From a candidate division WOR-3 bacterium (GTDB taxonomy: Bacteria > Hydrothermota > Hydrothermia > LBFQ01 > DSFT01), in the NCBI GenBank assembly GCA_039802865.1, contig JBDRXL010000002.1, forward strand, positions 39,826-103,825: a stretch of 64,000 nt of DNA, written 5' to 3'. The translations under genes and the position numbers were made by a program. This document shows positions 5,786 to 42,656 of the stretch, in pieces (position 1 is the first letter of the stretch; the number at the start of each line of letters is the position of its first letter). Below the pieces are notes generated by a model that was given only the letters and a program-made list of their open reading frames with translations, did no database searches and was not told where the DNA came from.

Positions 5786-5827
5786 CTCTAAAATTTTAAG
5801 GCTTAATCAACTTTAAAATTTTATTAT
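5786..5827. promoter_or_regulatory. Divergent promoter region: two back-to-back copies of the TTTAAAATTT element, each 7-8 nt from an ATG (lgt operon on - ; pgeF on +)
   Basis: + strand CTTTAAAATTTTATTAT-ATG(5828); - strand CCTTAAAATTTTAGAG-ATG(5785). Confidence 0.5.
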
Positions 5828-12611: not shown

Positions 12612-12627
12612 CTTTAAAATTTTCAGT
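12612..12627 (+). promoter_or_regulatory. CTTTAAAATTT element 7 nt upstream of pdxS ATG
   Basis: AACTTTAAAATTTTCAGT-ATG(12628); no SD. Confidence 0.45.
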
Positions 12628-14976: not shown

Positions 14977-15002
14977 TATACAAATTGCTTTAAAATTTTC
15001 AT

Positions 15003-16811: not shown

Positions 16812-16828
16812 GCTTTAAAATTTTGCCT

Positions 16829-21556: not shown

Positions 21557-22675
21557 ATGAGAGTTAATTCTCGGTTTTTTGAAAGTATTTTATCAAAATG
21601 GGGTAGTATAAGGGAACAATTTTCTGGTATTGAAGAATTTGAAGGAATTGATCCCCAGATTGTTTTAAGTGAATGGAATGAATATCATTATAAGAACAAT
21701 AAGAGTTATAAAATTGTTTCTGGGGATGGTTCTTATAACACACTTGAATATATAGATAAATATGTAATTCTGTCAGCAGGCTTAGGTATATCATTTGATG
21801 AAAATTATAATAAAGATGAAAAATACCTTTCTTTTGTTATAGTTATTCCTTTTGATGTTATTGTAAAGAAATTTTTAGATGATTTGGCATCATTAATTAT
21901 GGCAACCTTAGAGTTAAAATCAATATATTTAATATCAAAAGAGAAAAGTCCTGATATTGTAATTTTAGATGGTAGTATTAGGAATTTTATAATTAGGTTT
22001 GGTCCAAGTCATAGCAAAGAAATTGGTCAAAATTGGTTTTATAAGGGAAATTTAGATGAGAGAAAAATTGATGAGCTTTATTATGAAAACAAAGAGAGTA
22101 TATTTGAATTTGATTTATGGTCATATAATATCGTAAAGATGAATATTAAAGGAGATGATAAATTTATATATTTTGCACATCTTTTGTATTATGAATATTT
22201 AAAAGTTCTTGATGAGTTACTAAAAAACTTTAAAGTTATAAGCATTTCAAAATCCTTTTCTCCAACATTTGAAAATAAAATTTTCCCCCTTATAAATGCT
22301 CCTGATATTATTATATTTAATAACTATACAAAAAGCGTTGGTTATAGTAGTATTAGTTATTATTTGAAAGATGAATATAATATAAAGTGGAAATTACCAG
22401 AACCTTTTAGACATTTAGAAAAAAAGGATATAAATTTTTTTTATGCAAGATTTGAAGAAAATTACAGAGTTTATAAGGTTGAATTTATTGGTAATTTAAA
22501 TCAAGAAGAAATTCTTGATGTTTTACATCCATTTATAATTTCCGGTTATCCTTATATATTAAAAATTGCTCATAGTGAAGTATTAATAAGCGATAAAGAT
22601 GCAGAGTTATTTGAAAATTATGTAAAAAATGAAATGAAAAGGGAGATAGGACTTAAACTTAGGAGTGAGCTTTAA
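21557..22675 (+). CDS. Hypothetical protein; possible NurA-like nuclease fold
   Basis: KIVSGDGSYNTLEY and DIVILDGSIRNF resemble the DGS catalytic motifs of NurA 5'-3' nucleases; weak. Confidence 0.3.
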   Translation: MRVNSRFFESILSKWGSIREQFSGIEEFEGIDPQIVLSEWNEYHYKNNKSYKIVSGDGSYNTLEYIDKYVILSAGLGISFDENYNKDEKYLSFVIVIPFDVIVKKFLDDLASLIMATLELKSIYLISKEKSPDIVILDGSIRNFIIRFGPSHSKEIGQNWFYKGNLDERKIDELYYENKESIFEFDLWSYNIVKMNIKGDDKFIYFAHLLYYEYLKVLDELLKNFKVISISKSFSPTFENKIFPLINAPDIIIFNNYTKSVGYSSISYYLKDEYNIKWKLPEPFRHLEKKDINFFYARFEENYRVYKVEFIGNLNQEEILDVLHPFIISGYPYILKIAHSEVLISDKDAELFENYVKNEMKREIGLKLRSEL

Positions 22676-22686
22676 AATTTTCGCTT
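22669..22686 (+). promoter_or_regulatory. CTTTAAAATTT element 6 nt upstream of coxB ATG
   Basis: GCTTTAAAATTTTCGCTT-ATG(22687); no SD. Confidence 0.45.
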
Positions 22687-23650: not shown

Positions 23651-25246
23651 ATGCTTAGCAAACTTTTGAGCCATGAACCAAGACCTGGGCTCTTAGGTTG
23701 GTTATTTTCAACAGATCATAAGCGAATTGCCCTTCTTTACTTTTGGACAATAATTTTCTTTTTCCTTATTGCTGGAATTTTTGCACTTTTAATAAGAACT
23801 GAATTATTTTTGCCAGGAAAAACACTTTTTGATTCTGATACCTATAATAGAATATTTACTCTTCATGGAGTAATGATGGTATTTTTAGTAATAGTTCCAT
23901 TAATTCCTGCAGTTCTTGGTAATTACTTTATACCACTTATGATAGGGGCAAGAGATGTTGCATTTCCAAAACTTAATTTATTATCTTATTGGGTTTATTT
24001 AATAGGTGCTCTTATTGTTTTATCTTCTTTAATTTTTGGTGCTATTGATACAGGTTGGACATTTTATACGCCGTATAGCTTAAAAACGGGTGGGGGAGTT
24101 TTATTAGCATTACTTGGCGTTTTTATAATAGGATTTTCATCTATTTTAACAGGTCTTAATTTTGTAGTAACAATTCATAGACTAAGAGCTCCGGGACTAA
24201 GTTGGGGTAAATTACCTTTATTTGTATGGGCACTTTATGCAACATCGCTTATGAACGTTATTGCAACACCTGTTATAGGTATAACATTATTATTGTTAAT
24301 ACTTGAAAGATTATTTGGTGTTGGATTTTTTGATCCCACAAAAGGTGGAGATCCTATTCTATTTCAACATTTCTTCTGGTTTTATTCGCATCCCGTAGTA
24401 TATATAATGATACTTCCTGGTATGGGTATTATATCTGAGTTAATATCAGTTCATTCAAGGAAGAGGATATTTGGATATTGGGCTATGGCAGCAGCTATAT
24501 TTGGTATAGCATTTATTGGATTTATTGTATGGGCTCATCATATGTTCGTTAGTGGTATGTCAGATGTTGCAAGATGGATATTTTCATTCTTAACATTCTT
24601 TGTGGCGGTTCCAACAGGAGTAAAAGTATTTAATTGGGTTGCAACATTATATGGAGGTTCAATTAGATTAACTACACCAATGTTATATGCATTATCATTT
24701 TTATTCTTATTTACAATTGGAGGACTTACAGGACTTTGGCTTGCTACTGTTGCGACAGATGTTTATTTACATGATACCTATTTTGTAGTAGCACACTTCC
24801 ATTATGTTATGGTTGGAGGAGCTATAACTGCTTTCTTTGGAGGTTTATATCACTGGTTTCCAAAAATTACAGGTAGAATGTATAATGAATTTTGGGGAAA
24901 GATTAGTGCTTTACTTGTATTCTTAGGTTTTAATATGACATTTTTCCCACAATTTTTATTAGGAATGCAAGGTATGCCAAGAAGATATTGGGATTATCTT
25001 CCTGAATTTACATTATTAAATCAAATATCAACTATTGGAGCATTTACATTAGCAACTGGTGTATTTATATCTTTATTAACACTCTTTATTGCTTGGAGAA
25101 GGGGACCAAAAGCTGTTGAAAATCCTTGGGGTGCTGCTACCTTAGAATGGCAAACTACATCTCCACCACCTTATTATAATTTTAAAGAAATACCTCATGT
25201 AGAGCATGGTCCTTATGAATATGAAGTTTTGAAAAAGGAGGGATAA
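23651..25246 (+). CDS. coxA: Cytochrome c oxidase subunit I
   Basis: 12-TM haem-copper oxidase subunit I with conserved His ligands (WAHHMF, HFHYV). Confidence 0.95.
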   Translation: MLSKLLSHEPRPGLLGWLFSTDHKRIALLYFWTIIFFFLIAGIFALLIRTELFLPGKTLFDSDTYNRIFTLHGVMMVFLVIVPLIPAVLGNYFIPLMIGARDVAFPKLNLLSYWVYLIGALIVLSSLIFGAIDTGWTFYTPYSLKTGGGVLLALLGVFIIGFSSILTGLNFVVTIHRLRAPGLSWGKLPLFVWALYATSLMNVIATPVIGITLLLLILERLFGVGFFDPTKGGDPILFQHFFWFYSHPVVYIMILPGMGIISELISVHSRKRIFGYWAMAAAIFGIAFIGFIVWAHHMFVSGMSDVARWIFSFLTFFVAVPTGVKVFNWVATLYGGSIRLTTPMLYALSFLFLFTIGGLTGLWLATVATDVYLHDTYFVVAHFHYVMVGGAITAFFGGLYHWFPKITGRMYNEFWGKISALLVFLGFNMTFFPQFLLGMQGMPRRYWDYLPEFTLLNQISTIGAFTLATGVFISLLTLFIAWRRGPKAVENPWGAATLEWQTTSPPPYYNFKEIPHVEHGPYEYEVLKKEG

Positions 25247-25249
25247 AAT

Positions 25250-25876
25250 ATGCAAGAAGCTATAAAGCACGAACATATAGAGCTTGTTCATAAGGATGAT
25301 TTTGGTGCAAAACTTGGAATGTGGTTATTTTTGGCTACGGAATTACTTTTATTTGCTGGACTTTTTACGCTATATGCGGTTTTTAGAGGAGTTTATTTAC
25401 CTTATTTTCATGAGGGCCAAAAGGAATTACAACCTATTATTGGGTTAATAAATAGTATAGTTTTATTTTTAGGGGGGCTTACTGCTGTTTTGGCAATTGC
25501 TGCTGCAAGAAAAGATAACAAAAATCATTTAGTTTTGTTTTTAACAATTACTATTTTAACAGGTATAACATTCTTAATTATCAAAGCATATGAATATGGT
25601 TTGAAAATTCAACATGGATTGTTCTTTAATATGGAACATTTTAATTCACTCGCTAATGGTTTAAAAGTTTTCTTTTCTCTTTACTTTGTAATGACTGGAA
25701 TTCATGCTCTACACGTTTTAATAGGGGTTATTCTATTTTCATTTATTCTCTTCTTTGCCCTTAGGAATGAATATAGTTCTAAGAATTATATACAGGTCGA
25801 AATAGCTGGATTATATTGGTGTCTTGTAGATTTAATTTGGATGTATCTTTTCCCGCTTTTATACCTTGTTAAGTAG
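25250..25876 (+). CDS. coxC: Cytochrome c oxidase subunit III
   Basis: Subunit III-like TM protein directly after coxA with GGAGG RBS. Confidence 0.8.
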   Translation: MQEAIKHEHIELVHKDDFGAKLGMWLFLATELLLFAGLFTLYAVFRGVYLPYFHEGQKELQPIIGLINSIVLFLGGLTAVLAIAAARKDNKNHLVLFLTITILTGITFLIIKAYEYGLKIQHGLFFNMEHFNSLANGLKVFFSLYFVMTGIHALHVLIGVILFSFILFFALRNEYSSKNYIQVEIAGLYWCLVDLIWMYLFPLLYLVK

Positions 25877-26571
25877 TGTTTTCTAATCCTTTTTATGTAT
25901 TATTAGTTTTTATTTTTTCTATTACAACAGTTAATATCCTGAAAGTCGTTATAAATTACGATAATTATAAACAAGTAATGGTAAATCAAATGGAACAAAA
26001 TTTAGAAGAAATCAAAGAAAATTTAAAAAAGCAAGATTTAACATATGAAGAAAAGGAGAGAAGATTAGAGAATTATAGAAAAATTTATTTAATGTCAATC
26101 TCTTTACCTATTATTGTTCTTTCAAATATCGCTTTTGGTATATTTTTACTTCCAATTATTATGTTGGTTCAAGCATTTGCTTTTAGTATGTTATTTTTTA
26201 TATTTCCAAATTCTTATAAGGGTTATAATTTTAAGAAGTTATTTCTAATTTTGATTTATTCTAAAACAGCAATTCTCTTAGGTGCATTTCTTTCACTTAT
26301 CTTTTCAATAATTTATCAAAATCCGACATTTTCGTTTAACTTTTCAAATTTTATTCCCTATGAATTTGTTTCACATAATAGTTATTTAAAAGCTATAAGA
26401 AATACACTTTATCATATTGAACCATTTTCTATATTAAGCTTGATATTACTTATATTTGGACTAAATAAAGCTTTTGATTTTGAAATAAAAAAAGCAGTTA
26501 TAGGAGTTTTTGGAATTTTTATTATATTTTTGATATTAAATGCATTATTCTTTTTATTGTTCTTTAAATGA
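25876..26571 (+). CDS. Polytopic membrane protein of unknown function, translationally coupled to the caa3 operon
   Basis: Start overlaps coxC stop; ~5 TM segments; no recognisable motif. Confidence 0.4.
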   Translation: MFSNPFYVLLVFIFSITTVNILKVVINYDNYKQVMVNQMEQNLEEIKENLKKQDLTYEEKERRLENYRKIYLMSISLPIIVLSNIAFGIFLLPIIMLVQAFAFSMLFFIFPNSYKGYNFKKLFLILIYSKTAILLGAFLSLIFSIIYQNPTFSFNFSNFIPYEFVSHNSYLKAIRNTLYHIEPFSILSLILLIFGLNKAFDFEIKKAVIGVFGIFIIFLILNALFFLLFFK

Positions 26572-27509
26572 AGCGTTTTGTTTTTATATTACTTTTTTCT
26601 TGTTCTAAAATTGATATAGTTCCTAAAATTCAATTAAGTCCAAATCCTTCACAATCAAATAGTTATGTAAATATCCTTCTTGATATTCCAGATACTCTTA
26701 AAAGATATGATAAGTATATTTCAATACACTTTATATATTCCAATTCTGAGGAGAGAAAAGTTATAAAGTTAGCTAATACTAACTTATATCAACTTTATTT
26801 GCCTGAAAGTTTAATAAACTATTCTGTTTATCTTATTATAGATACATTTACTATAAGGCTTGAAGGTATTAGAGTTTATGAAGGTTCAAAGCCTAAACAA
26901 AACACATTTTTTATTTCATCAAAATATGAAAAAATTGATAGTCAAAAAATAAAATTATTAAAAGCGGAACTTGAAAATTACCCAAATAATATAAAAGCAA
27001 AAGCTTATTATGATTGTCTTAAAAATGAAAAAACAGATACTTCTCAAATATATGAGCTTTATTATAATATCTGCAAAAATCCAAATAATTACAAAAATAT
27101 ATTAAAGGCTATTGAATATGGTGATAGTTCATATGAATTTTTATTTAAGGCTTCATTTATTTCAGATACAATTCTTGATATTGCATCTAAGAAGTTTAGT
27201 GATGATATGGAGCTTCAACTATTAAAACTTAAAAAATTGAATGAAAAAAAGAGATTTAATGAAAGTATTATTCTTTCTGATTTTTTAGTAAAAAATTTAA
27301 ATATGGAATGGTTATATAAGTTTTATCCACATTTAAATTATAAGGAAAGAAGAAATAAGTTTTTTGAAGTATTTTCAGAGATATATAAGCAAAAGGCATT
27401 AGCACATTTAAATTTAAATGATAGTGTAAATTATAAGAAAAACTTTTATATATATTGCTTAAATTACCCATTTGTGGAAAAAAATGAAGAATGTAAAGAT
27501 GTCAAATAG
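26568..27509 (+). CDS. Hypothetical lipoprotein
   Basis: Lipobox LLFSC; last codons ...CKDVK* are part of the 32-bp repeat duplicated upstream of gyrA. Confidence 0.4.
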   Translation: MKRFVFILLFSCSKIDIVPKIQLSPNPSQSNSYVNILLDIPDTLKRYDKYISIHFIYSNSEERKVIKLANTNLYQLYLPESLINYSVYLIIDTFTIRLEGIRVYEGSKPKQNTFFISSKYEKIDSQKIKLLKAELENYPNNIKAKAYYDCLKNEKTDTSQIYELYYNICKNPNNYKNILKAIEYGDSSYEFLFKASFISDTILDIASKKFSDDMELQLLKLKKLNEKKRFNESIILSDFLVKNLNMEWLYKFYPHLNYKERRNKFFEVFSEIYKQKALAHLNLNDSVNYKKNFYIYCLNYPFVEKNEECKDVK

Positions 27510-27523
27510 AACTTTAAAATTTT
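27492..27523 (+). repeat. 32-bp direct repeat, copy 1 (TGTAAAGATGTCAAATAGAACTTTAAAATTTT)
   Basis: 30/32 identical to 30009..30040; includes the promoter element. Confidence 0.85.
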
Positions 27524-27526
27524 CTA

Positions 27527-29365
27527 ATGTATTATTGGTATTTTAAATTGTTTAATAATATAAAAAGTGAGCATGAGGCAAATGAGTTAGCAAAGATTGA
27601 ATTGGAGAGTTTATTTGGTAAGGTAGAGCCGATTTTTAATTTTGCAGATAGATTGTGCGAAGAGCCATTGCGTATATTCATGAGTATGCCCGAAAGATTA
27701 CAAGATTATATAATTCATGAATTGCCATATGGTAAAATACAAGGTTATTTTGCAAAATCACATGAATTGAAAAATTTGAATAAATTAGTAAAGAGATTGG
27801 CATATACTCGGGAAATTTATGTTGTTTTAAAGCTTGATTCACATAAACCAATTGAAGACTTAAAAGATATTATTTTCTCGGAAGGTGTTTTAGGTAAGAA
27901 TTTTCAATATTTCAAGGCAAAGGACTATGTGTGCATAAGAGCTATAACTCATCAATATTTTTTAGAAAAATCTGAGTATATATCAAAATTAAGTAGGAAT
28001 GAACAAGAGATAGAAAGAAATGTAAAGATATTATTTTCCTATTTGACAGAAAAGCTTTATCGTATTCCTGCTTCTGTTACTTTGAGTATCGGAAAACGTT
28101 TAGAGGATTATTTCACTATTAGAGAAGAACCTTCTCTTTATCTTACACATTACTTTCATCCATATAAAGGTAAATTTCATCCAAAAATGGTAAGAGCATT
28201 AATAAATTATATATATCCTTCTGACAAAGGAATTTTGCTTGATAATTTTGCAGGAAGTGGAACTTCATTGGTTGAGGCAGTTTTGATGGAGCTTGATAGT
28301 AAAGGAGTGGAAATAAATCCGCTTTCTGCTTTAATGTGTAATGTAAAAACGAGATCATTAATTTTAAATTTTAATCAATTAAAGGAAGAAATATATAATT
28401 ATTTTGAGGAGGTAAAATTTGCTCTTTCAATATATGAGTCTATGAAGAAGGGTCAATTGTTACTACAAAAAAGTAATATAAACTTTGATATAATTAGACA
28501 AAAAGTTTTTACTCTTTCAAGTAATCTGAAAGGTTATTTAAAGAGGGATAGTGAAATAATTTCACAAGTTTTAATATTTAGAGAAATTTTAAGTGCTATA
28601 AAAGATGATGAGGTTAAAAATTTTCTATTGTTAGTATTGAGTGGAACTATTAGTGATGTTATAAGAAGGAAAAATGGGAATTTTTTATCCTTGTTTGAAG
28701 AAAGATTAAAGGAGCTTTATTTGAGATTGTTCCTTTTTCAGGAATTAAATAAAGTTTTAAAAATTAATGTTGGAAAATCTGAGACTTATGTTTGTGATGC
28801 AAGAAATATGGAAGAATTTGTTGAAACGGAAGAAATAGACGGTATAGTTACATCTCCACCTTACTCTGTTGCGTTGGATTATATAAAAAATGACTTTCCC
28901 CAACTGGTACTTTTGGAATTGGTTGAATCTATTGATAAGTTAGAAAAAGCTATGATTGGAAATCCCAGGGCAACATATAATAAGGAATTACTCTTCACTT
29001 ATGATAAAACTATTTTACCCAAAATTGCAGAAGATGTTTTAAATATTCTTTTTAGAAATGGAAAGGAAAAAGAAGGATTGCGTAGTTTAAAATTTTTTAT
29101 TGATATGTTTAAATCCTTGAAGGAGATGTATAGAGTTCTTAAAAGAGGAAGCTATTGTGTTATTGTGATAGGTAATAATCATTTTTCTGTGGATGGAAAG
29201 GTTATTGAAATTCCAAATGATAAAATTATCTTGGAGTTGGCAAGTAGTATTGGTTTTGTTCAATGTAAGTTTATAAAGCGAGAATTAGAAAAGAGTAGTG
29301 AAGGTAACATCAAGGAAGAAAGTATCATAATTATGAAAAAAGGAGGTAGTATAAGTGGGGGTTAA
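27527..29365 (+). CDS. Putative DNA amino-methyltransferase (N6A/N4C), 612 aa
   Basis: Motif I LLDNFAGSGTSLVEA and motif IV DGIVTSPPYSVALDY ~200 aa apart; large N-terminal extra domain. Confidence 0.55.
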   Translation: MYYWYFKLFNNIKSEHEANELAKIELESLFGKVEPIFNFADRLCEEPLRIFMSMPERLQDYIIHELPYGKIQGYFAKSHELKNLNKLVKRLAYTREIYVVLKLDSHKPIEDLKDIIFSEGVLGKNFQYFKAKDYVCIRAITHQYFLEKSEYISKLSRNEQEIERNVKILFSYLTEKLYRIPASVTLSIGKRLEDYFTIREEPSLYLTHYFHPYKGKFHPKMVRALINYIYPSDKGILLDNFAGSGTSLVEAVLMELDSKGVEINPLSALMCNVKTRSLILNFNQLKEEIYNYFEEVKFALSIYESMKKGQLLLQKSNINFDIIRQKVFTLSSNLKGYLKRDSEIISQVLIFREILSAIKDDEVKNFLLLVLSGTISDVIRRKNGNFLSLFEERLKELYLRLFLFQELNKVLKINVGKSETYVCDARNMEEFVETEEIDGIVTSPPYSVALDYIKNDFPQLVLLELVESIDKLEKAMIGNPRATYNKELLFTYDKTILPKIAEDVLNILFRNGKEKEGLRSLKFFIDMFKSLKEMYRVLKRGSYCVIVIGNNHFSVDGKVIEIPNDKIILELASSIGFVQCKFIKRELEKSSEGNIKEESIIIMKKGGSISGG

Positions 29366-29996
29366 AAAGAGAATAATTGAAGGACCGGAGATAAAAATTT
29401 CTGAGCCTATAGGGCGCTTTGAGATTGTAAGAAAAGTGGTCTCAACTTTTATTGATTTTGAAAAAGATAAAAAAGGAAAGGGTATTGAATTTCGTTATCC
29501 TGTTGAAAATCTATCTATTGGTGATAAACTTTATATTCATAGACCAGGAATTAAATGGAATTTTGATTTTAAGGTAGAAGTTTTTCCAAGGTTTGGCCTT
29601 CAAGATGGAAAGCATGAACAAATTGCTTTAATTTTAAGGAAAATTAAAAGGACAAATAAAGAAGAATTTAGCAAACTTTGGAATATGATTTGTCAGTTGT
29701 ATCACTGTTCAAATAATGATGTAGATCTGCTTTTAAGAATGAACCGCATTTCAATAAGTAATCCCAAACCTGATATTTTATTGAAGGTTATAAAATGGTT
29801 ATTTATTATGGAGGATATAGTTTATTGGCACTATGAGGGTAGAGCGTTTTTATATAACTTTTTCTTATATGTTATAAGTGAGAGAAACACTAAACAACTT
29901 AGTGATATTTTATCTCAATTTAAAAAAAGAAAGGCAAAACCTGAAAAAATAAAAAAGCTACTTGAAGAATTAGGGATAAATTGGGAATTACCATAA
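29355..29996 (+). CDS. Hypothetical protein translationally coupled to the methyltransferase; candidate restriction endonuclease or specificity partner
   Basis: Start overlaps MTase stop by 11 nt; no recognisable domain. Confidence 0.3.
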   Translation: MGVKKRIIEGPEIKISEPIGRFEIVRKVVSTFIDFEKDKKGKGIEFRYPVENLSIGDKLYIHRPGIKWNFDFKVEVFPRFGLQDGKHEQIALILRKIKRTNKEEFSKLWNMICQLYHCSNNDVDLLLRMNRISISNPKPDILLKVIKWLFIMEDIVYWHYEGRAFLYNFFLYVISERNTKQLSDILSQFKKRKAKPEKIKKLLEELGINWELP

Positions 29997-30008
29997 TTCA
30001 CGAGATAG

Positions 30009-30040
30009 TGTAAAATTGTCAAATAGAACTTTAAAATTTT
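30009..30040 (+). repeat. 32-bp direct repeat, copy 2 (TGTAAAATTGTCAAATAGAACTTTAAAATTTT), gyrA promoter
   Basis: Duplicate of 27492..27523; ATG of gyrA 6 nt downstream. Confidence 0.85.
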
Positions 30041-30046
30041 AAACTT

Positions 30047-33000
30047 ATGGAAAAGCACATAATTTCAGATTTTGAAGAGGAATTAAAAGAAAGTTATTTA
30101 AAATTTGCTTTAAGTGTTATAATAAGCAGAGCCATACCAGATGCAAGAGATGGTTTAAAACCTGTTCAAAGAAGAATTCTCTATGCTATGTATGATATGG
30201 GTTTATTGCCAAATAAACCATTTAGGAAATCTGCTACGGTTGTTGGTGAAGTAATTGGAAAGTATCATCCCCATGGAGACCAAGCAGTATATGATGCATT
30301 AGTAAGATTGGCTCAGGACTTTCATATGCGATATCCACTTATAGAAGGTCAAGGAAATTTTGGTTCTATTGATGGAGACCCACCTGCCGCATATAGGTAT
30401 TGTCTTACAGGTGATGCCCTTGTTATTACAAATAAAGGATTAAAAAGAATAGATAGAATTGCCAATAGTGAAGATATTAAAAACTTAGGATTTGAAATTT
30501 TATCATTTAATAAAAAGATAAATAAAATTAGTAAATGGTTTGATTCTGGCATACACCCAGTTTTTGAAATTAGGACAGTGAGAGGATTTTCATTAAAAGG
30601 CACTTCAAATCATCCAATTTTAATTTTTGATAAAAGTTCTAAAAAATTTATTTGGAAAACAATAAGTGATATTCAATTTGGTGATTATGCAGTTATTGAT
30701 ATATCAACAGATTATCTTTTTAATAAAGAAGAAGCAAAAACTCTTTCAAAATACCTAAGGAAAGTTTTTAAAGAAAATAGTAATATTGTTAATAGTCTTG
30801 AAAATCCTAAAATTATATTATATTCAGCAAACTTTGACTTTTTAAGTCAAATTCAAGTGCTTCTTTTAAGGTTTGGAATTATAAGTAATATTACAAAAAA
30901 TCAATTAGTAATAAACTCTTTTGAAAATCTACAAAAGTTTTATAAGTTTATAGGTTTTGAAGATAAAGAAAAAAGTTATCAGTTAAGAAAAATTTTAAAT
31001 TCTTTTAAGGGGGAAATTTTTGAATTTAAAAATGGTTATTTAATTGAGCCAATTGTGAGGAAAAAATTTTTAGGTTTTGATAGGGTATATTCTATAAAGG
31101 TTGAGAGTGATTGTCATTCATTTGTTGCTAATGGTTTTATAAATCATAATACAGAAGCACGCTTAGAAAAAATTTCCTTAGAATTGTTAAATAATATAGA
31201 AGAAGATGTAGTAGATTTTGTAGATAATTTTGATGGTAGATTTAAGGAGCCAGTATTATTGCCAGCAAGCTTTCCAAACCTTTTAGTAAATGGTGCAGTT
31301 GGTATAGCGGTTGGTATGGGAACAAGTATTCCACCACATAATTTATCCGAAGTAATTGATGGAACAATTGCATTAATAGATAATCCAAATATTACTATTG
31401 AAGAATTAATGAGATATATAAAAGGTCCTGATTTTCCTACGGGTGGAGTTATTGTAGGTAAGAAAGGAATTTATGAAGCATATAAAACAGGTAAAGGAAA
31501 AATTACTGTAAGAGCAAAATATGAAGTTGATGATAAAAGTATAATAATTAAAGAAATCCCTTATCTTGTAAATAAGGCTGAACTTATTAGTAAAATTGCA
31601 CAACTTGTAAGAGATGGCGTTATTGAAGGAATTTCTGATATTAGAGATGAGTCTGATAAGGATGGTCTTAGAGTTGTAATTGAAATAAAAAGAGGTTATG
31701 AAAGTCAGATTGTTTTAAATCAATTATTAAAGCATACGAAACTTCAAGATACATTTGGCATAAATATGATTGCTATTTTAAATAATCAACCAAAAACATT
31801 TAACTTAAAAGAATTACTTGAAGTATTTATTAGTTTTAGACAAGAAGTTGTTATAAGGAGAACACAATTTAGATTAAATAAAGCAAAGGCAAGAATGCAT
31901 ATTCTTGAAGGATTTTTAAAAGCCCTTGATAATTTAGATGATATTATTCAAATTATTAGAGGTAGTGAAGATGTTCAAATAGCAAGAAAAACACTTATTG
32001 AAAAATATAATTTTACAATTGAACAAGTAAATGCAATATTAGAGCTTAAATTACAAAACTTAACAAAACTTGAAAGAGAAAAAATTTTAAGTGAGTATAG
32101 AGAGCTTGAAAAAGATGTTAATTATTATCAAACACTTCTTACTAAAAGAGATGAGTTATTAAAACTTATAAAGAAGGAATTATTGGAAATTAAGGAAAAA
32201 TATGGGGATAAGAGGCGAACTTTAATTACTGAAAAAGATGAGGTTAGTTTTGAGATTGAGGATTTAATTCAAAAGGAAGAAACAGTAATTTTAATTACAA
32301 AGAATGGTTATATAAAGAGAATGTCATTAAAAAGTTTTAGAACACAAAATAGAAATACAAAGGGTAAAACAGGCATTAAAACTTATGAAGATGATATACC
32401 ATATAAAATTGTTATAGCAAATACTCATTCACAACTTCTCTTTATAACAAATAAAGGTAGAATGTTTTGGACAAAAGCATATAAAATTCCTGAAATGGGT
32501 TTAACAAGTAAGGGTAAATCTATAAATAATTTCTTTACATTAAATCAAGATGAAAGAATTGCTGATATACTACCTAATGAGGATGCAAGATATATAGTTA
32601 TTATTACAAAAGCTGGAAGGTTAAAAAGGGTTAGTTTAGATGAAATCTCAAAGGGAAGAATGGGTTCTCAAATTATTAAGTTGAAAGATAATGATGAAGT
32701 AGTAAAGGCTTTATTAACACTTGGTGAGGAAGATATTTTAATAGCAAAAGAAGATGGAAAGGTTGTAAGAATAAAACAAAGTGAAATTCCAATTCAAAGT
32801 AGGAAAGGAAGTGGTGTTAAGGGGGTAAAGGGAAAGGATGTTATTTCAGGGTGCATTATATTGCCAAATTCAAAAGTTATAACTATTACGGAAAGAGGTT
32901 ATGGTAAAAAGGTTAAAGAAGAGGAAATTCCAGCATTAAGAAGAGGAGCAAAGGGTATTTATATAATAAAGGCAAGGGAAAAAATAGGTAAGTTAATTGC

Positions 33001-33172
33001 GGTTGTTGATAGTATTCAAGAGAATGAAAATTTACTTATCATTACAAAAAATGGTTTAGCATTAAGAATAGATATTTCTAATTTAAATGAACTTTCAAGA
33101 AACGCTGGCGGAGTTAAATTAATTAATTTAGAAGAAAATGATTTAGTTAGTGCAGTGGGGGTGGTAAGATGA
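30047..33172 (+). CDS. gyrA: DNA gyrase subunit A, interrupted in-frame by a 250-aa intein (exteins 30047..30400 and 31151..33172)
   Basis: GyrA blocks: QRRILYAM, active-site AAYRY then, after the intein, TEARLEKIS; C-terminal beta-pinwheel repeats. Confidence 0.9.
30401..31150 (+). other. GyrA mini-intein (250 aa) inserted after the catalytic Tyr
   Basis: Begins CLTGDALV (block A), GTSNHPIL (block B), ends [22 protein letters not shown] (blocks F/G) followed by +1 Thr; same site and high similarity to Mxe GyrA intein; central ~110 aa retains only a degenerate DOD block ([13 protein letters not shown]). Confidence 0.85.
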
Positions 33173-35522: not shown

Positions 35523-35538
35523 AAAGAAAATTTTAAAG
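35523..35538 (-). promoter_or_regulatory. CTTTAAAATTT element 7 nt upstream of the coiled-coil gene ATG (minus strand)
   Basis: Minus strand reads GCTTTAAAATTTTCTTT-ATG(35522). Confidence 0.4.
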
Positions 35539-42630: not shown

Positions 42631-42656
42631 AGTTTCAAATTTTAAAGTGTAAGAAT
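42631..42656 (-). promoter_or_regulatory. CTTTAAAATTT element 7 nt upstream of cbaA ATG (minus strand)
   Basis: Minus strand reads CACTTTAAAATTTGAAACT-ATG(42630). Confidence 0.4.

What the first reader, a model, noticed from the sequence alone, without database searches (positions are those of the whole stretch)
27492..30040. 2.5-kb methyltransferase cassette inserted upstream of gyrA, bounded by 32-bp direct repeats that duplicate the gyrA promoter
TGTAAAGATGTCAAATAGAACTTTAAAATTTT at 27492..27523 and TGTAAAATTGTCAAATAGAACTTTAAAATTTT at 30009..30040 are 30/32 identical. Copy 1 includes the last codons and stop of the upstream 313-aa gene plus the promoter element. Copy 2 recreates the same junction directly in front of gyrA. 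The sequence between them encodes a 612-aa amino-methyltransferase (FAGSGT ... SPPY) translationally coupled to a 213-aa protein with no recognisable fold. This reads as a horizontally acquired R-M-like or defence module dropped into the intergenic spacer, with target or promoter duplication. The partner protein could be a new restriction endonuclease family or another effector.
Basis: seen in the sequence. Interest (0 to 1): 0.7.

Follow-up and report, generated by a model that had tools for sequence, protein, structure and literature searches.

The report
Restriction-modification-like cassette inserted before gyrA
A 2.5-kb two-gene DNA-methyltransferase cassette was horizontally inserted just upstream of gyrA in a WOR-3 bacterium, duplicating the 32-bp gyrA promoter; this is a known way restriction-modification genes move, but the second gene belongs to a widespread, undescribed protein family with no known fold.

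Summary
The two 32-bp copies (27492-27523, 30009-30040) match at 30/32. The right 14 nt are this lineage's generic promoter box, found 3-6 nt before many start codons. The left 18 nt (16/18) are unique to this pair. A related contig (L024) has the empty site: the upstream-gene homologue is followed directly by gyrA, with one promoter and no cassette.

The insert is only two ORFs. The first is a 612-aa amino-methyltransferase with invariant FAGSGT and SPPY motifs. It matches PF01555 and PADLOC type II MTase models. The second is an SD-coupled 213-aa protein.

Both families are scattered across Bacteria and Archaea, travel together, and are fused in one homologue. The partner's confident AlphaFold model matches nothing in the PDB and no profile library. 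Its superfamily pairs with three MTase types that have different architectures and Pfam families, including a Dam fusion. Its remote relatives lie in DpnII/MutH GATC islands.

Best reading: a Type II restriction-modification module inserted with a long target duplication (a known mode, Furuta 2010). The restriction-enzyme role of the partner is inferred, not shown. The THUMP/RNA-methyltransferase alternative is not supported by sequence, is only weakly hinted by structure, and is argued against by context. A second cassette in one strain marks the site as a hot spot.

The parts
26568..27509 (+). Upstream 313-aa gene, the last gene of the cytochrome oxidase cluster; its last 18 nt lie inside repeat copy 1
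   Evidence: ORF. Homologues P0242-P0251 show conserved cox-Yip1-313 synteny. Its tail DVK* diverges from the homologues after the conserved ECK.
27492..27523 (+). Direct repeat copy 1: five codons plus the stop of the 313-aa gene, then the promoter-like box
27512..27523 (+). Lineage-typical promoter-like box CTTTAAAATTTT, 3 nt before the MTase ATG
   Evidence: The same box lies 3-6 nt before many start codons and 13 nt before tRNA-Met and tRNA-Asn. It also precedes unrelated genes in sister genomes L021-L023.
27527..29365 (+). 612-aa amino-methyltransferase (putative DNA N4-cytosine or N6-adenine MTase)
   Evidence: PF01555 at 43.2 bits (cut-off 26.7) and PF01170 at 27.2 bits. PADLOC MTase_II PDLC03322 covers aa 198-578 at E=6.6e-37. 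632 homologues in Bacteria and Archaea at 50-69% identity over the full length. Invariant motifs.
27527..28141 (+). Conserved N-terminal alpha/beta domain of the MTase (aa 1-205), of unknown role
28247..28264 (+). SAM-binding motif I, FAGSGT (aa 241-246)
   Evidence: Read; F241, A242, G243, G245 and T246 are invariant.
28853..28864 (+). Catalytic motif IV, SPPY (aa 443-446). It lies downstream of motif I, the reverse of the usual PF01555 order
   Evidence: Read; S443, P444, P445 and Y446 are invariant in 35 sequences.
29341..29346 (+). Shine-Dalgarno AGGAGG, 8 nt before the partner's GTG start, inside the 3' end of the MTase gene
   Evidence: Read directly.
29355..29996 (+). 213-aa partner protein, putative restriction endonuclease of an undescribed superfamily
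   Evidence: 341 homologues, none named and none with a Pfam domain. AF2 pLDDT 91.6. No PDB fold match. Superfamily of 300 clusters. Linked to three MTase types of different architecture and Pfam family.
30009..30040 (+). Direct repeat copy 2: a relic of the 313-aa gene tail plus the promoter-like box that now serves gyrA
   Evidence: It is identical in all 10 conspecific contigs long enough to include it.
30047..33172 (+). gyrA (carries an intein), the gene downstream of the insertion
   Evidence: Pfam DNA_topoisoIV, DNA_gyraseA_C, Intein_splicing and LAGLIDADG_3.

Best explanation
The segment from about 27524 to 30008 is a horizontally acquired two-gene Type II restriction-modification-like module.

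How it got there. It landed in the 30-nt spacer between the last gene of the cytochrome-oxidase cluster and gyrA. The foreign DNA is trimmed almost exactly to the two ORFs, with 3 nt before the MTase ATG and 12 nt after the partner's stop codon. The insertion duplicated 32 bp of target: the tail of the upstream gene plus the promoter-like box. This is 'insertion with long target duplication', a known mobility mode of R-M gene complexes that needs no integrase or transposase.

How it is expressed (inferred). Copy 1 of the promoter box now drives the MTase as a near-leaderless transcript. The partner is translated from its own AGGAGG/GTG start, which overlaps the MTase stop. Copy 2 keeps the essential gyrA gene expressed. 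This would explain why only an event that duplicated the promoter could survive.

How it works (inferred). The MTase methylates an exocyclic amino group in a specific DNA sequence; SPPY suggests N4-cytosine. The 213-aa partner attacks the same sequence when it is unmethylated.

Shown: the repeat, the empty site, the DNA-MTase-type motifs, co-inheritance and fusion of the two genes, and linkage of the partner superfamily to three MTase types with different architectures and Pfam families.

Inferred: nuclease activity, target base and sequence, promoter function, and the molecular mechanism of the duplication.
For: Insertion:
- The repeat is real and statistically exceptional.
- L024 has the empty site, with the gene homologue followed directly by gyrA and one promoter box.
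- No mobility gene lies in or beside the insert.
- The case fits the criteria of Furuta et al. 2010 for insert size and repeat length: insert under 20 kb and duplication over 30 bp, with examples that overlap the 3' end of the upstream gene (PMC2853133).
- The cassette is about 10 times less polymorphic than its flanks across conspecific contigs. It has one variable site in 2485 bp, against about 0.3% divergence in the flanks. This fits a recent spread.
- One strain (L003) carries a second cassette at the same place: an Eco57I/TaqI_C-type MTase plus a 259-aa ORF. It is flanked by 250-bp repeats of the gyrA 5' end.

MTase:
- It matches PF01555 and PADLOC MTase_II models.
- FAGSGT and SPPY are invariant.
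- Its distribution is patchy, spanning WOR-3, Nitrospirota, Deltaproteobacteria, Odinarchaeia, Bathyarchaeota, Thermoplasmata and Aenigmarchaeota at 50-69% identity.

Partner:
- It is adjacent to the MTase in every context read for the close family, and at least 20 contig lengths are shared between the two hit lists.
- P0016 is an in-frame fusion of the two proteins.
- A 47%-identical partner pairs with a 283-aa beta-class DNA MTase related to M.MboIIA and M.RsrI, which shows no BLASTP similarity to the 612-aa enzyme.
- A remote relative is fused to a Dam-family MTase.
- In 21 of 22 viral loci, a relative lies in the same gene cluster as a DNA MTase motif: immediately adjacent in about six loci and one to three ORFs away in the rest.
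- Charged and aromatic residues are invariant across the superfamily: E51, R63, D71, K147, D154, R163, Y48, W148 and W158.
Against: - The D71-x-K73 that looks like a PD-(D/E)xK motif loses its lysine in remote relatives.
- In the GATC islands, remote relatives sit beside a complete DpnII system and a MutH-like nuclease, so a restriction enzyme is already present there.
- The best PDB sequence hits of the MTase motif X-I region are tRNA m2G methyltransferases (Trm11). Its N-terminal domain has weak structural similarity to the THUMP proteins ThiI and TrmN.
- The empty site comes from a different species (79% nt identity), so the exact pre-insertion sequence is not known.
- GC content does not mark the insert as foreign.
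- Some MTase homologues are orphans with no partner.
Confidence: 0.6

Rival explanations
1. The cassette is a mobile DNA methyltransferase plus a non-nuclease accessory protein. The accessory could be a methylation-linked DNA-binding protein, a reader or a regulator. On this view the cassette is an orphan-MTase module, not a restriction system.
For: The partner has no nuclease fold or motif. Remote relatives lie next to complete DpnII R-M systems and MutH-like nucleases, where the restriction function is already covered. Many invariant residues are aromatic (Y48, F72, W148, F150, Y157, W158), as in base-binding pockets. Orphan copies of the MTase exist.
Against: Two-gene MTase modules that come and go between relatives and are tightly coupled or fused are typical of R-M systems. 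A family that pairs with three MTase types of different architecture and Pfam family fits a restriction-enzyme family better than an MTase-specific cofactor. Invariant acidic and basic residues (E51, D71, K147, D154, R163) suggest catalysis. From my own recollection, not checked here, GATC systems with two restriction enzymes are known (SsuDAT1I).
Confidence: 0.22
2. The 612-aa protein is an RNA methyltransferase of the THUMP/Trm11/Trm14 type, and the module acts on tRNA or rRNA rather than DNA.
Confidence: 0.06
3. The repeat is an attachment-site or transposon-type duplication made by a site-specific recombinase or transposase encoded elsewhere. Alternatively, it reflects homology-facilitated illegitimate recombination with donor DNA that already carried the junction, rather than a target duplication made at insertion.
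For: In L003, the second cassette's right-hand repeat copy is only 87% identical to the left copy. It is followed upstream by a relic of a different upstream gene, like the one in sister genome L022. That cassette therefore came in with donor flanks by recombination. The two focal copies differ by an adjacent GA/AT dinucleotide.
Against: No integrase or transposase lies in the cassette or its neighbours. The cassette has no terminal inverted repeats of note. 32 bp is outside the usual transposon duplication range (PMC2853133). The core repeat is not found elsewhere in the window.
Confidence: 0.1
4. There was no insertion. The two copies are just two instances of the generic promoter, similar by chance, and the cassette is ancestral.
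For: 14 of the 32 nt are the common promoter-like box.
Against: The 18 nt outside the box match at 16/18 (P about 3e-7), and this pair is the sole outlier among 903 pairs. L024 has the empty site. Copy 2 retains an out-of-context relic of the stop codon and last codons of the upstream gene.
Confidence: 0.02

Closest known systems
R-M gene complexes inserted with long target duplication (Furuta, Abe & Kobayashi 2010, NAR 38:2428, PMC2853133, and its ref. 37 on H. pylori)
   Same: The insert is a small unit with an M gene and a putative R gene and no mobility genes. It is flanked by direct repeats longer than 30 bp that align with a single copy in a related genome. The repeat overlaps the 3' end of the upstream gene, as in the two H. 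influenzae 46-bp cases, which overlap by 15 bp and 2 bp.
   Different: The R gene is only inferred here. The duplicated segment coincides with the promoter-like box of an essential gene. The host is an uncultured WOR-3 bacterium. The empty site comes from another species rather than a conspecific strain.
PF01555 N6_N4_Mtase DNA methyltransferases (e.g. M.PvuII, M.RsrI, M.MboIIA)
   Same: The protein passes the Pfam gathering score. It has an (S/D)PPY catalytic motif followed by a ...RVLKxGG... segment, and an FxGSGT SAM-binding motif.
   Different: The motif order is reversed: motif I lies about 200 residues before motif IV, with a roughly 175-residue insertion between them. There is an extra, highly conserved 200-aa N-terminal domain. 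BLASTP finds no similarity to the classical beta-class MTase that partners the same family in L031.
THUMP-linked RNA methyltransferases (Trm11, Trm14, TrmN; PF01170/TIGR01177)
   Same: The motif X-I region (aa 204-267) is most similar to these enzymes. The N-terminal alpha/beta domain has a weak structural resemblance to the NFLD-THUMP modules of ThiI and TrmN.
   Different: No THUMP signal appears at the sequence level. The catalytic motif is SPPY rather than (D/N)PPY. There is a long insertion between the motifs. The gene is mobile, patchily distributed and coupled to a partner family that otherwise pairs with DNA MTases.
DpnII-type GATC restriction-modification cassettes (DpnM / DpnA / R.DpnII)
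   Same: Remote relatives of the 213-aa protein (25-30% identity) lie directly upstream of clusters of D12 MTase, PF01555 MTase and R.DpnII, often with a MutH-like gene between. One relative is fused to a Dam-family MTase.
   Different: The window's cassette has none of these genes. Its MTase belongs to another class, and nothing shows that it targets GATC.

Membership tests
Type II restriction-modification system | A DNA methyltransferase with a SAM-binding motif I and a catalytic (D/N/S)PP(Y/F) motif IV | tested here: met
   FAGSGT and SPPY are invariant. PF01555 passes its cut-off. PADLOC MTase_II matches at E=6.6e-37 over aa 198-578.
Type II restriction-modification system | An adjacent gene for a restriction endonuclease of matching specificity | tested here: inconclusive
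   An adjacent, SD-coupled 213-aa gene is present and co-inherited. It has no nuclease family or fold match. The nuclease role is inferred from its linkage to three MTase types of different architecture and Pfam family.
Type II restriction-modification system | Demonstrated sequence-specific DNA methylation and cleavage | not testable with these tools
   This needs methylome data or biochemistry.
Insertion with long target duplication (criteria of PMC2853133) | The insert contains both R and M homologues, is under 20 kb, and has no mobility genes | tested here: inconclusive
   The insert is about 2.49 kb, has two ORFs and has no integrase or transposase. M is established; R is only inferred.
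Insertion with long target duplication (criteria of PMC2853133) | Flanking direct repeats longer than 30 bp | tested here: met
   32 bp, 30/32 identical.
Insertion with long target duplication (criteria of PMC2853133) | The repeat aligns with a single copy at an empty site in a related genome | tested here: met
   In L024 the gene homologue is followed directly by gyrA with one promoter box. blastn skips window 27483-30030. The relative is a different species (79% nt identity).
THUMP-type RNA methyltransferase (Trm11/Trm14/RlmL) | A THUMP domain N-terminal to the methyltransferase domain | tested here: inconclusive
THUMP-type RNA methyltransferase (Trm11/Trm14/RlmL) | The whole protein reaches the family model's trusted score | tested here: not met
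   TIGR01177 scores 37 bits against a cut-off of 316. NF040721 (Trm14) scores 19 bits against 280.
PD-(D/E)xK nuclease (for the 213-aa protein) | A conserved D...(D/E)xK catalytic motif on an alpha-beta-beta-beta-alpha-beta core | tested here: not met

The most novel reading that the evidence does not exclude
The 213-aa protein founds an undescribed superfamily with a fold absent from the PDB. The superfamily has about 300 clusters at 50% identity and occurs in Bacteria, Archaea and viral contigs. It would be a new class of methylation-coupled DNA enzyme: either a new restriction endonuclease fold or a base-excising (glycosylase-type) restriction enzyme. It has repeatedly teamed up with at least three DNA methyltransferase types of different architecture and Pfam family, including Dam fusions, and it sits in DpnII/MutH GATC islands.
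Probability: 0.4. Interest if true: 0.65.

Novelty: new member of a known kind. Interest (0 to 1): 0.45.

Why it matters
For genome biology, this is a clean, fully resolved example from an uncultured phylum of how an R-M-type module inserts next to an essential gene without disrupting it. The cassette is trimmed to its ORFs, takes over the resident promoter and leaves a duplicate for gyrA. A second cassette in another strain shows that the site is reused.

For enzymology, the partner is a compact (175-215 aa), highly conserved and confidently modelled protein family with no known fold or annotation. It is tied to DNA methyltransferases in many lineages. That makes it a concrete, testable candidate for a new restriction-enzyme family, probably thermostable in this clade given its apparent occurrence in thermophile-type lineages, which I did not verify.

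The MTase itself is unusual in two ways: it has a conserved 200-aa N-terminal domain, and its motif order is reversed.

Tried and rejected
- Empty-site search through more distant homologues of the 313-aa gene (L011, L012-14, L015-17, L019, L020). All have other genes downstream, so they say nothing about the site.
- Exact-pattern scan of JGI metagenomes for the repeat core. It found only one more filled contig.
- Scan of GTDB genomes for the promoter box plus start codon. It found the box in front of unrelated genes, which showed that it is a generic motif rather than a gyrA-specific sequence.
- GC content and skew do not mark the insert.
- The sigma-70 consensus scan is uninformative: 13 sites against 16.7 expected.
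- The partner gave nothing against Pfam, NCBIfam, PADLOC and PHROGs, whether scanned alone or member by member. The PDB sequence profile also gave nothing.
- The AFDB50 library was unavailable.
- hhalign of the partner superfamily against the neighbouring MutH-like family was negative.
- tblastn of the partner and a remote relative against plasmid and phage collections found no match. The close family is absent from IMG/VR.
- Palindrome avoidance (CTAG, GATC, GTAC and CATG are strongly under-represented) cannot be assigned to this system.
- An apparently truncated partner gene in L005 turned out to be a gene-calling difference; the DNA is identical.
Full report
OBSERVATION

They match at 30/32, and their starts are 2517 bp apart. 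The 24-nt exact core is unique to these two sites in the window, and no shuffle reproduced it.

One important qualification emerged. The right-hand 14 nt (AACTTTAAAATTTT) are not specific to this locus. The motif is enriched in the window, with 53 matches against 20.8 expected at up to 2 mismatches. CTTTAAAATTTT lies 3-6 nt upstream of the start codon of many genes on both strands. It also lies 13 nt upstream of both tRNA genes. The same box plus start codon precedes unrelated genes in sister genomes: a NuoE-like gene, a TPR protein gene and gyrA. I read it as the lineage's -10-type promoter box for near-leaderless transcripts. That is an inference, since there are no transcript data.

The left 18 nt are the last five codons and the stop of the 313-aa gene, and they still match at 16/18. 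The probability of this is about 3e-7 from base composition. Among all 903 pairs of box instances in the window, this pair is the only outlier. So the duplication is real and extends beyond the generic promoter.

WHAT LIES BETWEEN THE COPIES

There are two ORFs and almost nothing else.

The first ORF is the 612-aa protein (27527-29365). Its ATG lies 3 nt after the promoter box, and homologues start at the same MYYWYFK, so the foreign DNA begins essentially at the start codon.

The second ORF is the 213-aa protein (29355-29996). It starts at a GTG preceded by AGGAGG and overlaps the MTase stop by 11 nt. Twelve nucleotides after its stop codon, repeat copy 2 begins.

THE METHYLTRANSFERASE

- It passes the Pfam gathering scores of PF01555 (N6_N4_Mtase) and, marginally, PF01170.
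- The PADLOC model PDLC03322 for Type II MTases covers aa 198-578 in one stretch at E=6.6e-37.
- FAGSGT (motif I) and SPPY (motif IV) are invariant in 35 diverse homologues. Motif I precedes motif IV by about 200 residues, the reverse of the usual PF01555 order.
- From general knowledge of amino-MTase motifs, SPPY is typical of N4-cytosine enzymes. The target base is not shown here.

The family has 632 detected members of about 610 aa. They share 50-69% identity over the full length and are scattered over WOR-3, Nitrospirota, Deltaproteobacteria, Odinarchaeia, Bathyarchaeota, Thermoplasmata and Aenigmarchaeota. That distribution points to horizontal transfer, not to a housekeeping RNA-modification enzyme.

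IS IT A THUMP-TYPE RNA METHYLTRANSFERASE?

- The similarity to Trm11 is confined to aa 204-267, the generic motif X-I region. The TIGR01177 model scores 37 bits against a cut-off of 316.
- The N-terminal 205 residues give no Pfam hit in any of 17 family members at E up to 1.
- The N-terminal profile finds no THUMP protein in the PDB by sequence.

So a distant THUMP-like ancestry of the N-terminal domain cannot be excluded. Membership in the RNA-MTase families was tested and not met. The genomic behaviour also argues for a DNA enzyme.

THE PARTNER PROTEIN

It has 341 homologues. None is named and none has a Pfam domain. It gives no hit in Pfam, NCBIfam, PADLOC or PHROGs, whether scanned alone or member by member.

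A profile search over 1.84 billion representatives shows a larger superfamily: 300 clusters at E up to 1e-3, mostly proteins of about 180 aa. Residues invariant or nearly invariant across the superfamily are Y48, V50, E51, R63, P64, D71, F72, K147, W148, F150, D154, Y157, W158, G162 and R163. The tempting D71-x-K73 is not conserved, so a canonical PD-(D/E)xK motif is not met.

WHY I STILL FAVOUR A RESTRICTION ENZYME

The argument rests on linkage.

1. In every context read for the close family, the partner is adjacent to an MTase. In the window, L025/26, L027 and L032 it lies downstream of a 610-643-aa MTase, and these two-gene modules sit among unrelated housekeeping genes. At least 20 contig lengths are shared between the two hit lists.
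2. One homologue, P0016 (828 aa), is an in-frame fusion of the two proteins.
3. In L031, a partner with 47% identity is paired with a classical 283-aa beta-class DNA MTase instead. That MTase is related to M.MboIIA, M.RsrI and CcrM and shows no BLASTP similarity to the 612-aa enzyme. The gene order there is reversed.
4. A remote relative is fused to the C-terminus of a Dam-family MTase in Leptotrichia buccalis, WP_015770430.
5. In 21 of 22 IMG/VR loci, a remote relative lies in the same gene cluster as a DNA MTase motif. The MTase is immediately adjacent in about six loci and one to three ORFs away in the rest.

A family that keeps company with three MTase types of different architecture and Pfam family behaves like a restriction-enzyme family.

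THE COUNTER-EVIDENCE

In most of the viral loci the arrangement is: DUF7004, partner-like, MutH-like, D12 MTase, PF01555 MTase, R.DpnII. A restriction enzyme is already present there. The partner family could therefore be a methylation-linked accessory protein, or a second or third nuclease that shares the same protective methylation. hhalign finds no relation to the MutH-like neighbours. I put the nuclease reading at about 0.6 and the accessory reading at about 0.2.

IS IT AN INSERTION?

Yes. The more distant homologues of the 313-aa gene have other genes downstream and are uninformative. The closest relative is L024, with 72% protein identity and the same cox-Yip1 synteny. In L024 the gene's stop codon is followed by 28 nt containing one promoter box (CCTTAAAATTTC), and then by gyrA. 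By blastn, L024 is collinear with window 24973-27482 and then with 30031-30115. It skips the cassette and one repeat copy.

All 11 conspecific contigs examined carry the cassette, and every repeat copy present on them is identical to the window's. The cassette has a single variable site in 2485 bp, whereas the flanks differ by about 0.3% and by up to 0.7%. This suggests the cassette spread recently relative to strain divergence.

There is no integrase, transposase or notable inverted repeat. The insert size (under 20 kb) and repeat length (over 30 bp) meet the published criteria for 'insertion with long target duplication' of R-M complexes; the remaining criterion, both R and M in the insert, holds only if the partner is the R gene. 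The published examples include repeats that overlap the 3' end of the upstream gene (PMC2853133). The molecular mechanism of such duplications is not known and is not revealed here.

A HOT SPOT

One strain (L003, 99.5% identical to the window on the left side) carries a second cassette between the first cassette and gyrA. It encodes a 603-aa Eco57I/TaqI_C-type N6-adenine MTase and a 259-aa ORF with no family. It is flanked by 250-bp direct repeats of the gyrA 5' end that are only 87% identical.

The left copy is the resident sequence. The right copy, together with a relic of a different upstream gene like the one in sister genome L022, is donor-derived. That cassette therefore arrived with foreign flanks, consistent with homology-facilitated recombination. 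The site upstream of gyrA is evidently a reusable landing place.

FUNCTIONAL LOGIC (INFERRED)

Any insertion between the gyrA promoter box and the gyrA start codon would silence an essential gene unless the promoter were duplicated. The surviving event has one copy driving the cassette and one copy driving gyrA. The two differences between the copies (GA versus AT) fall outside the box.

VERDICT

The phenomenon is a new instance of a known kind of event: an R-M-type cassette inserted with a long target duplication.

The part worth following up is the partner superfamily. It is widespread, compact, confidently folded, absent from the four profile libraries searched (Pfam, NCBIfam, PADLOC, PHROGs) and from the PDB, and consistently tied to DNA methyltransferases.

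Noticed in passing
window-wide, e.g. 5811-5822, 12612-12623, 14988-14999, 16813-16824, 22670-22681, 35527-35538(-), 42636-42647(-); also L021:158-181, L022:6209-6232(-), L023:2428-2451: CTTTAAAATTTT lies 3-6 nt upstream of the start codons of many genes and 13 nt upstream of tRNA-Met (6511) and tRNA-Asn (39601, minus strand). It looks like a -10-type promoter box giving leaderless or near-leaderless mRNAs, and it is shared with sister WOR-3/Hydrothermia genomes.
   Followed up: partly
L003:8504-11787 (JGI 3300038392 Ga0394092_04708): A conspecific strain has a second cassette between the first one and gyrA. It encodes a 603-aa Eco57I/TaqI_C-type MTase and a 259-aa ORF with no family. It is flanked by 250-bp repeats of the gyrA 5' end at 87% identity. 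The right copy and an adjacent gene relic come from a different lineage resembling L022.
   Followed up: partly
window 30047-33172: gyrA carries an intein with a LAGLIDADG domain (about aa 119-368 of 1041). The gyrA of sister genome L022 is 793 aa and lacks the intein.
   Followed up: no
L034-L055 (IMG/VR contigs), e.g. L039:3474-7774: There is a recurrent gene island: DUF7004, a relative of the 213-aa protein, a MutH-like gene, a D12 (Dam-like) MTase, a PF01555 MTase and R.DpnII. In other loci the relative sits next to a PDDEXK_11 protein and a Dam-like MTase.
   Followed up: partly
P0308 / WP_015770430.1 (Leptotrichia buccalis): A 478-481-aa protein annotated 'DNA adenine methylase' is a fusion of a Dam-family MTase (aa 15-281) with the partner-superfamily domain (aa 317-475). 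Its 90%-identity cluster has 143 members.
   Followed up: partly
window 27492-27509 versus homologues P0243-P0251: The 313-aa protein ends three residues after a conserved ECK, whereas most homologues continue for 10-25 more residues (xFDRYLNKIKKKE...). The closest relative, P0242, also stops at ECK. This suggests an older rearrangement that placed gyrA next to this gene.
   Followed up: no
window 1-64000: Four 4-nt palindromes are strongly under-represented relative to a Markov expectation: CTAG 16 observed against 103 expected, GATC 47 against 130, GTAC 14 against 78, and CATG 69 against 150. This is compatible with restriction pressure but cannot be assigned to any one system.
   Followed up: no
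window 27524-30008 versus L001-L009: The cassette shows one polymorphic site (29281 A/G) across conspecific contigs, while the flanks differ at 0.3-0.7% of positions.
   Followed up: yes
L015:6948-9368 (GCA_025060695.1): About 2.4 kb with no called gene lies directly downstream of the 315-aa homologue in a more distant WOR-3 genome. I did not examine it.
   Followed up: no
L028-L030: A homologue of the MTase with 51% identity occurs as an orphan, with no partner gene, on contigs up to 0.9-1.1 Mb.
   Followed up: no
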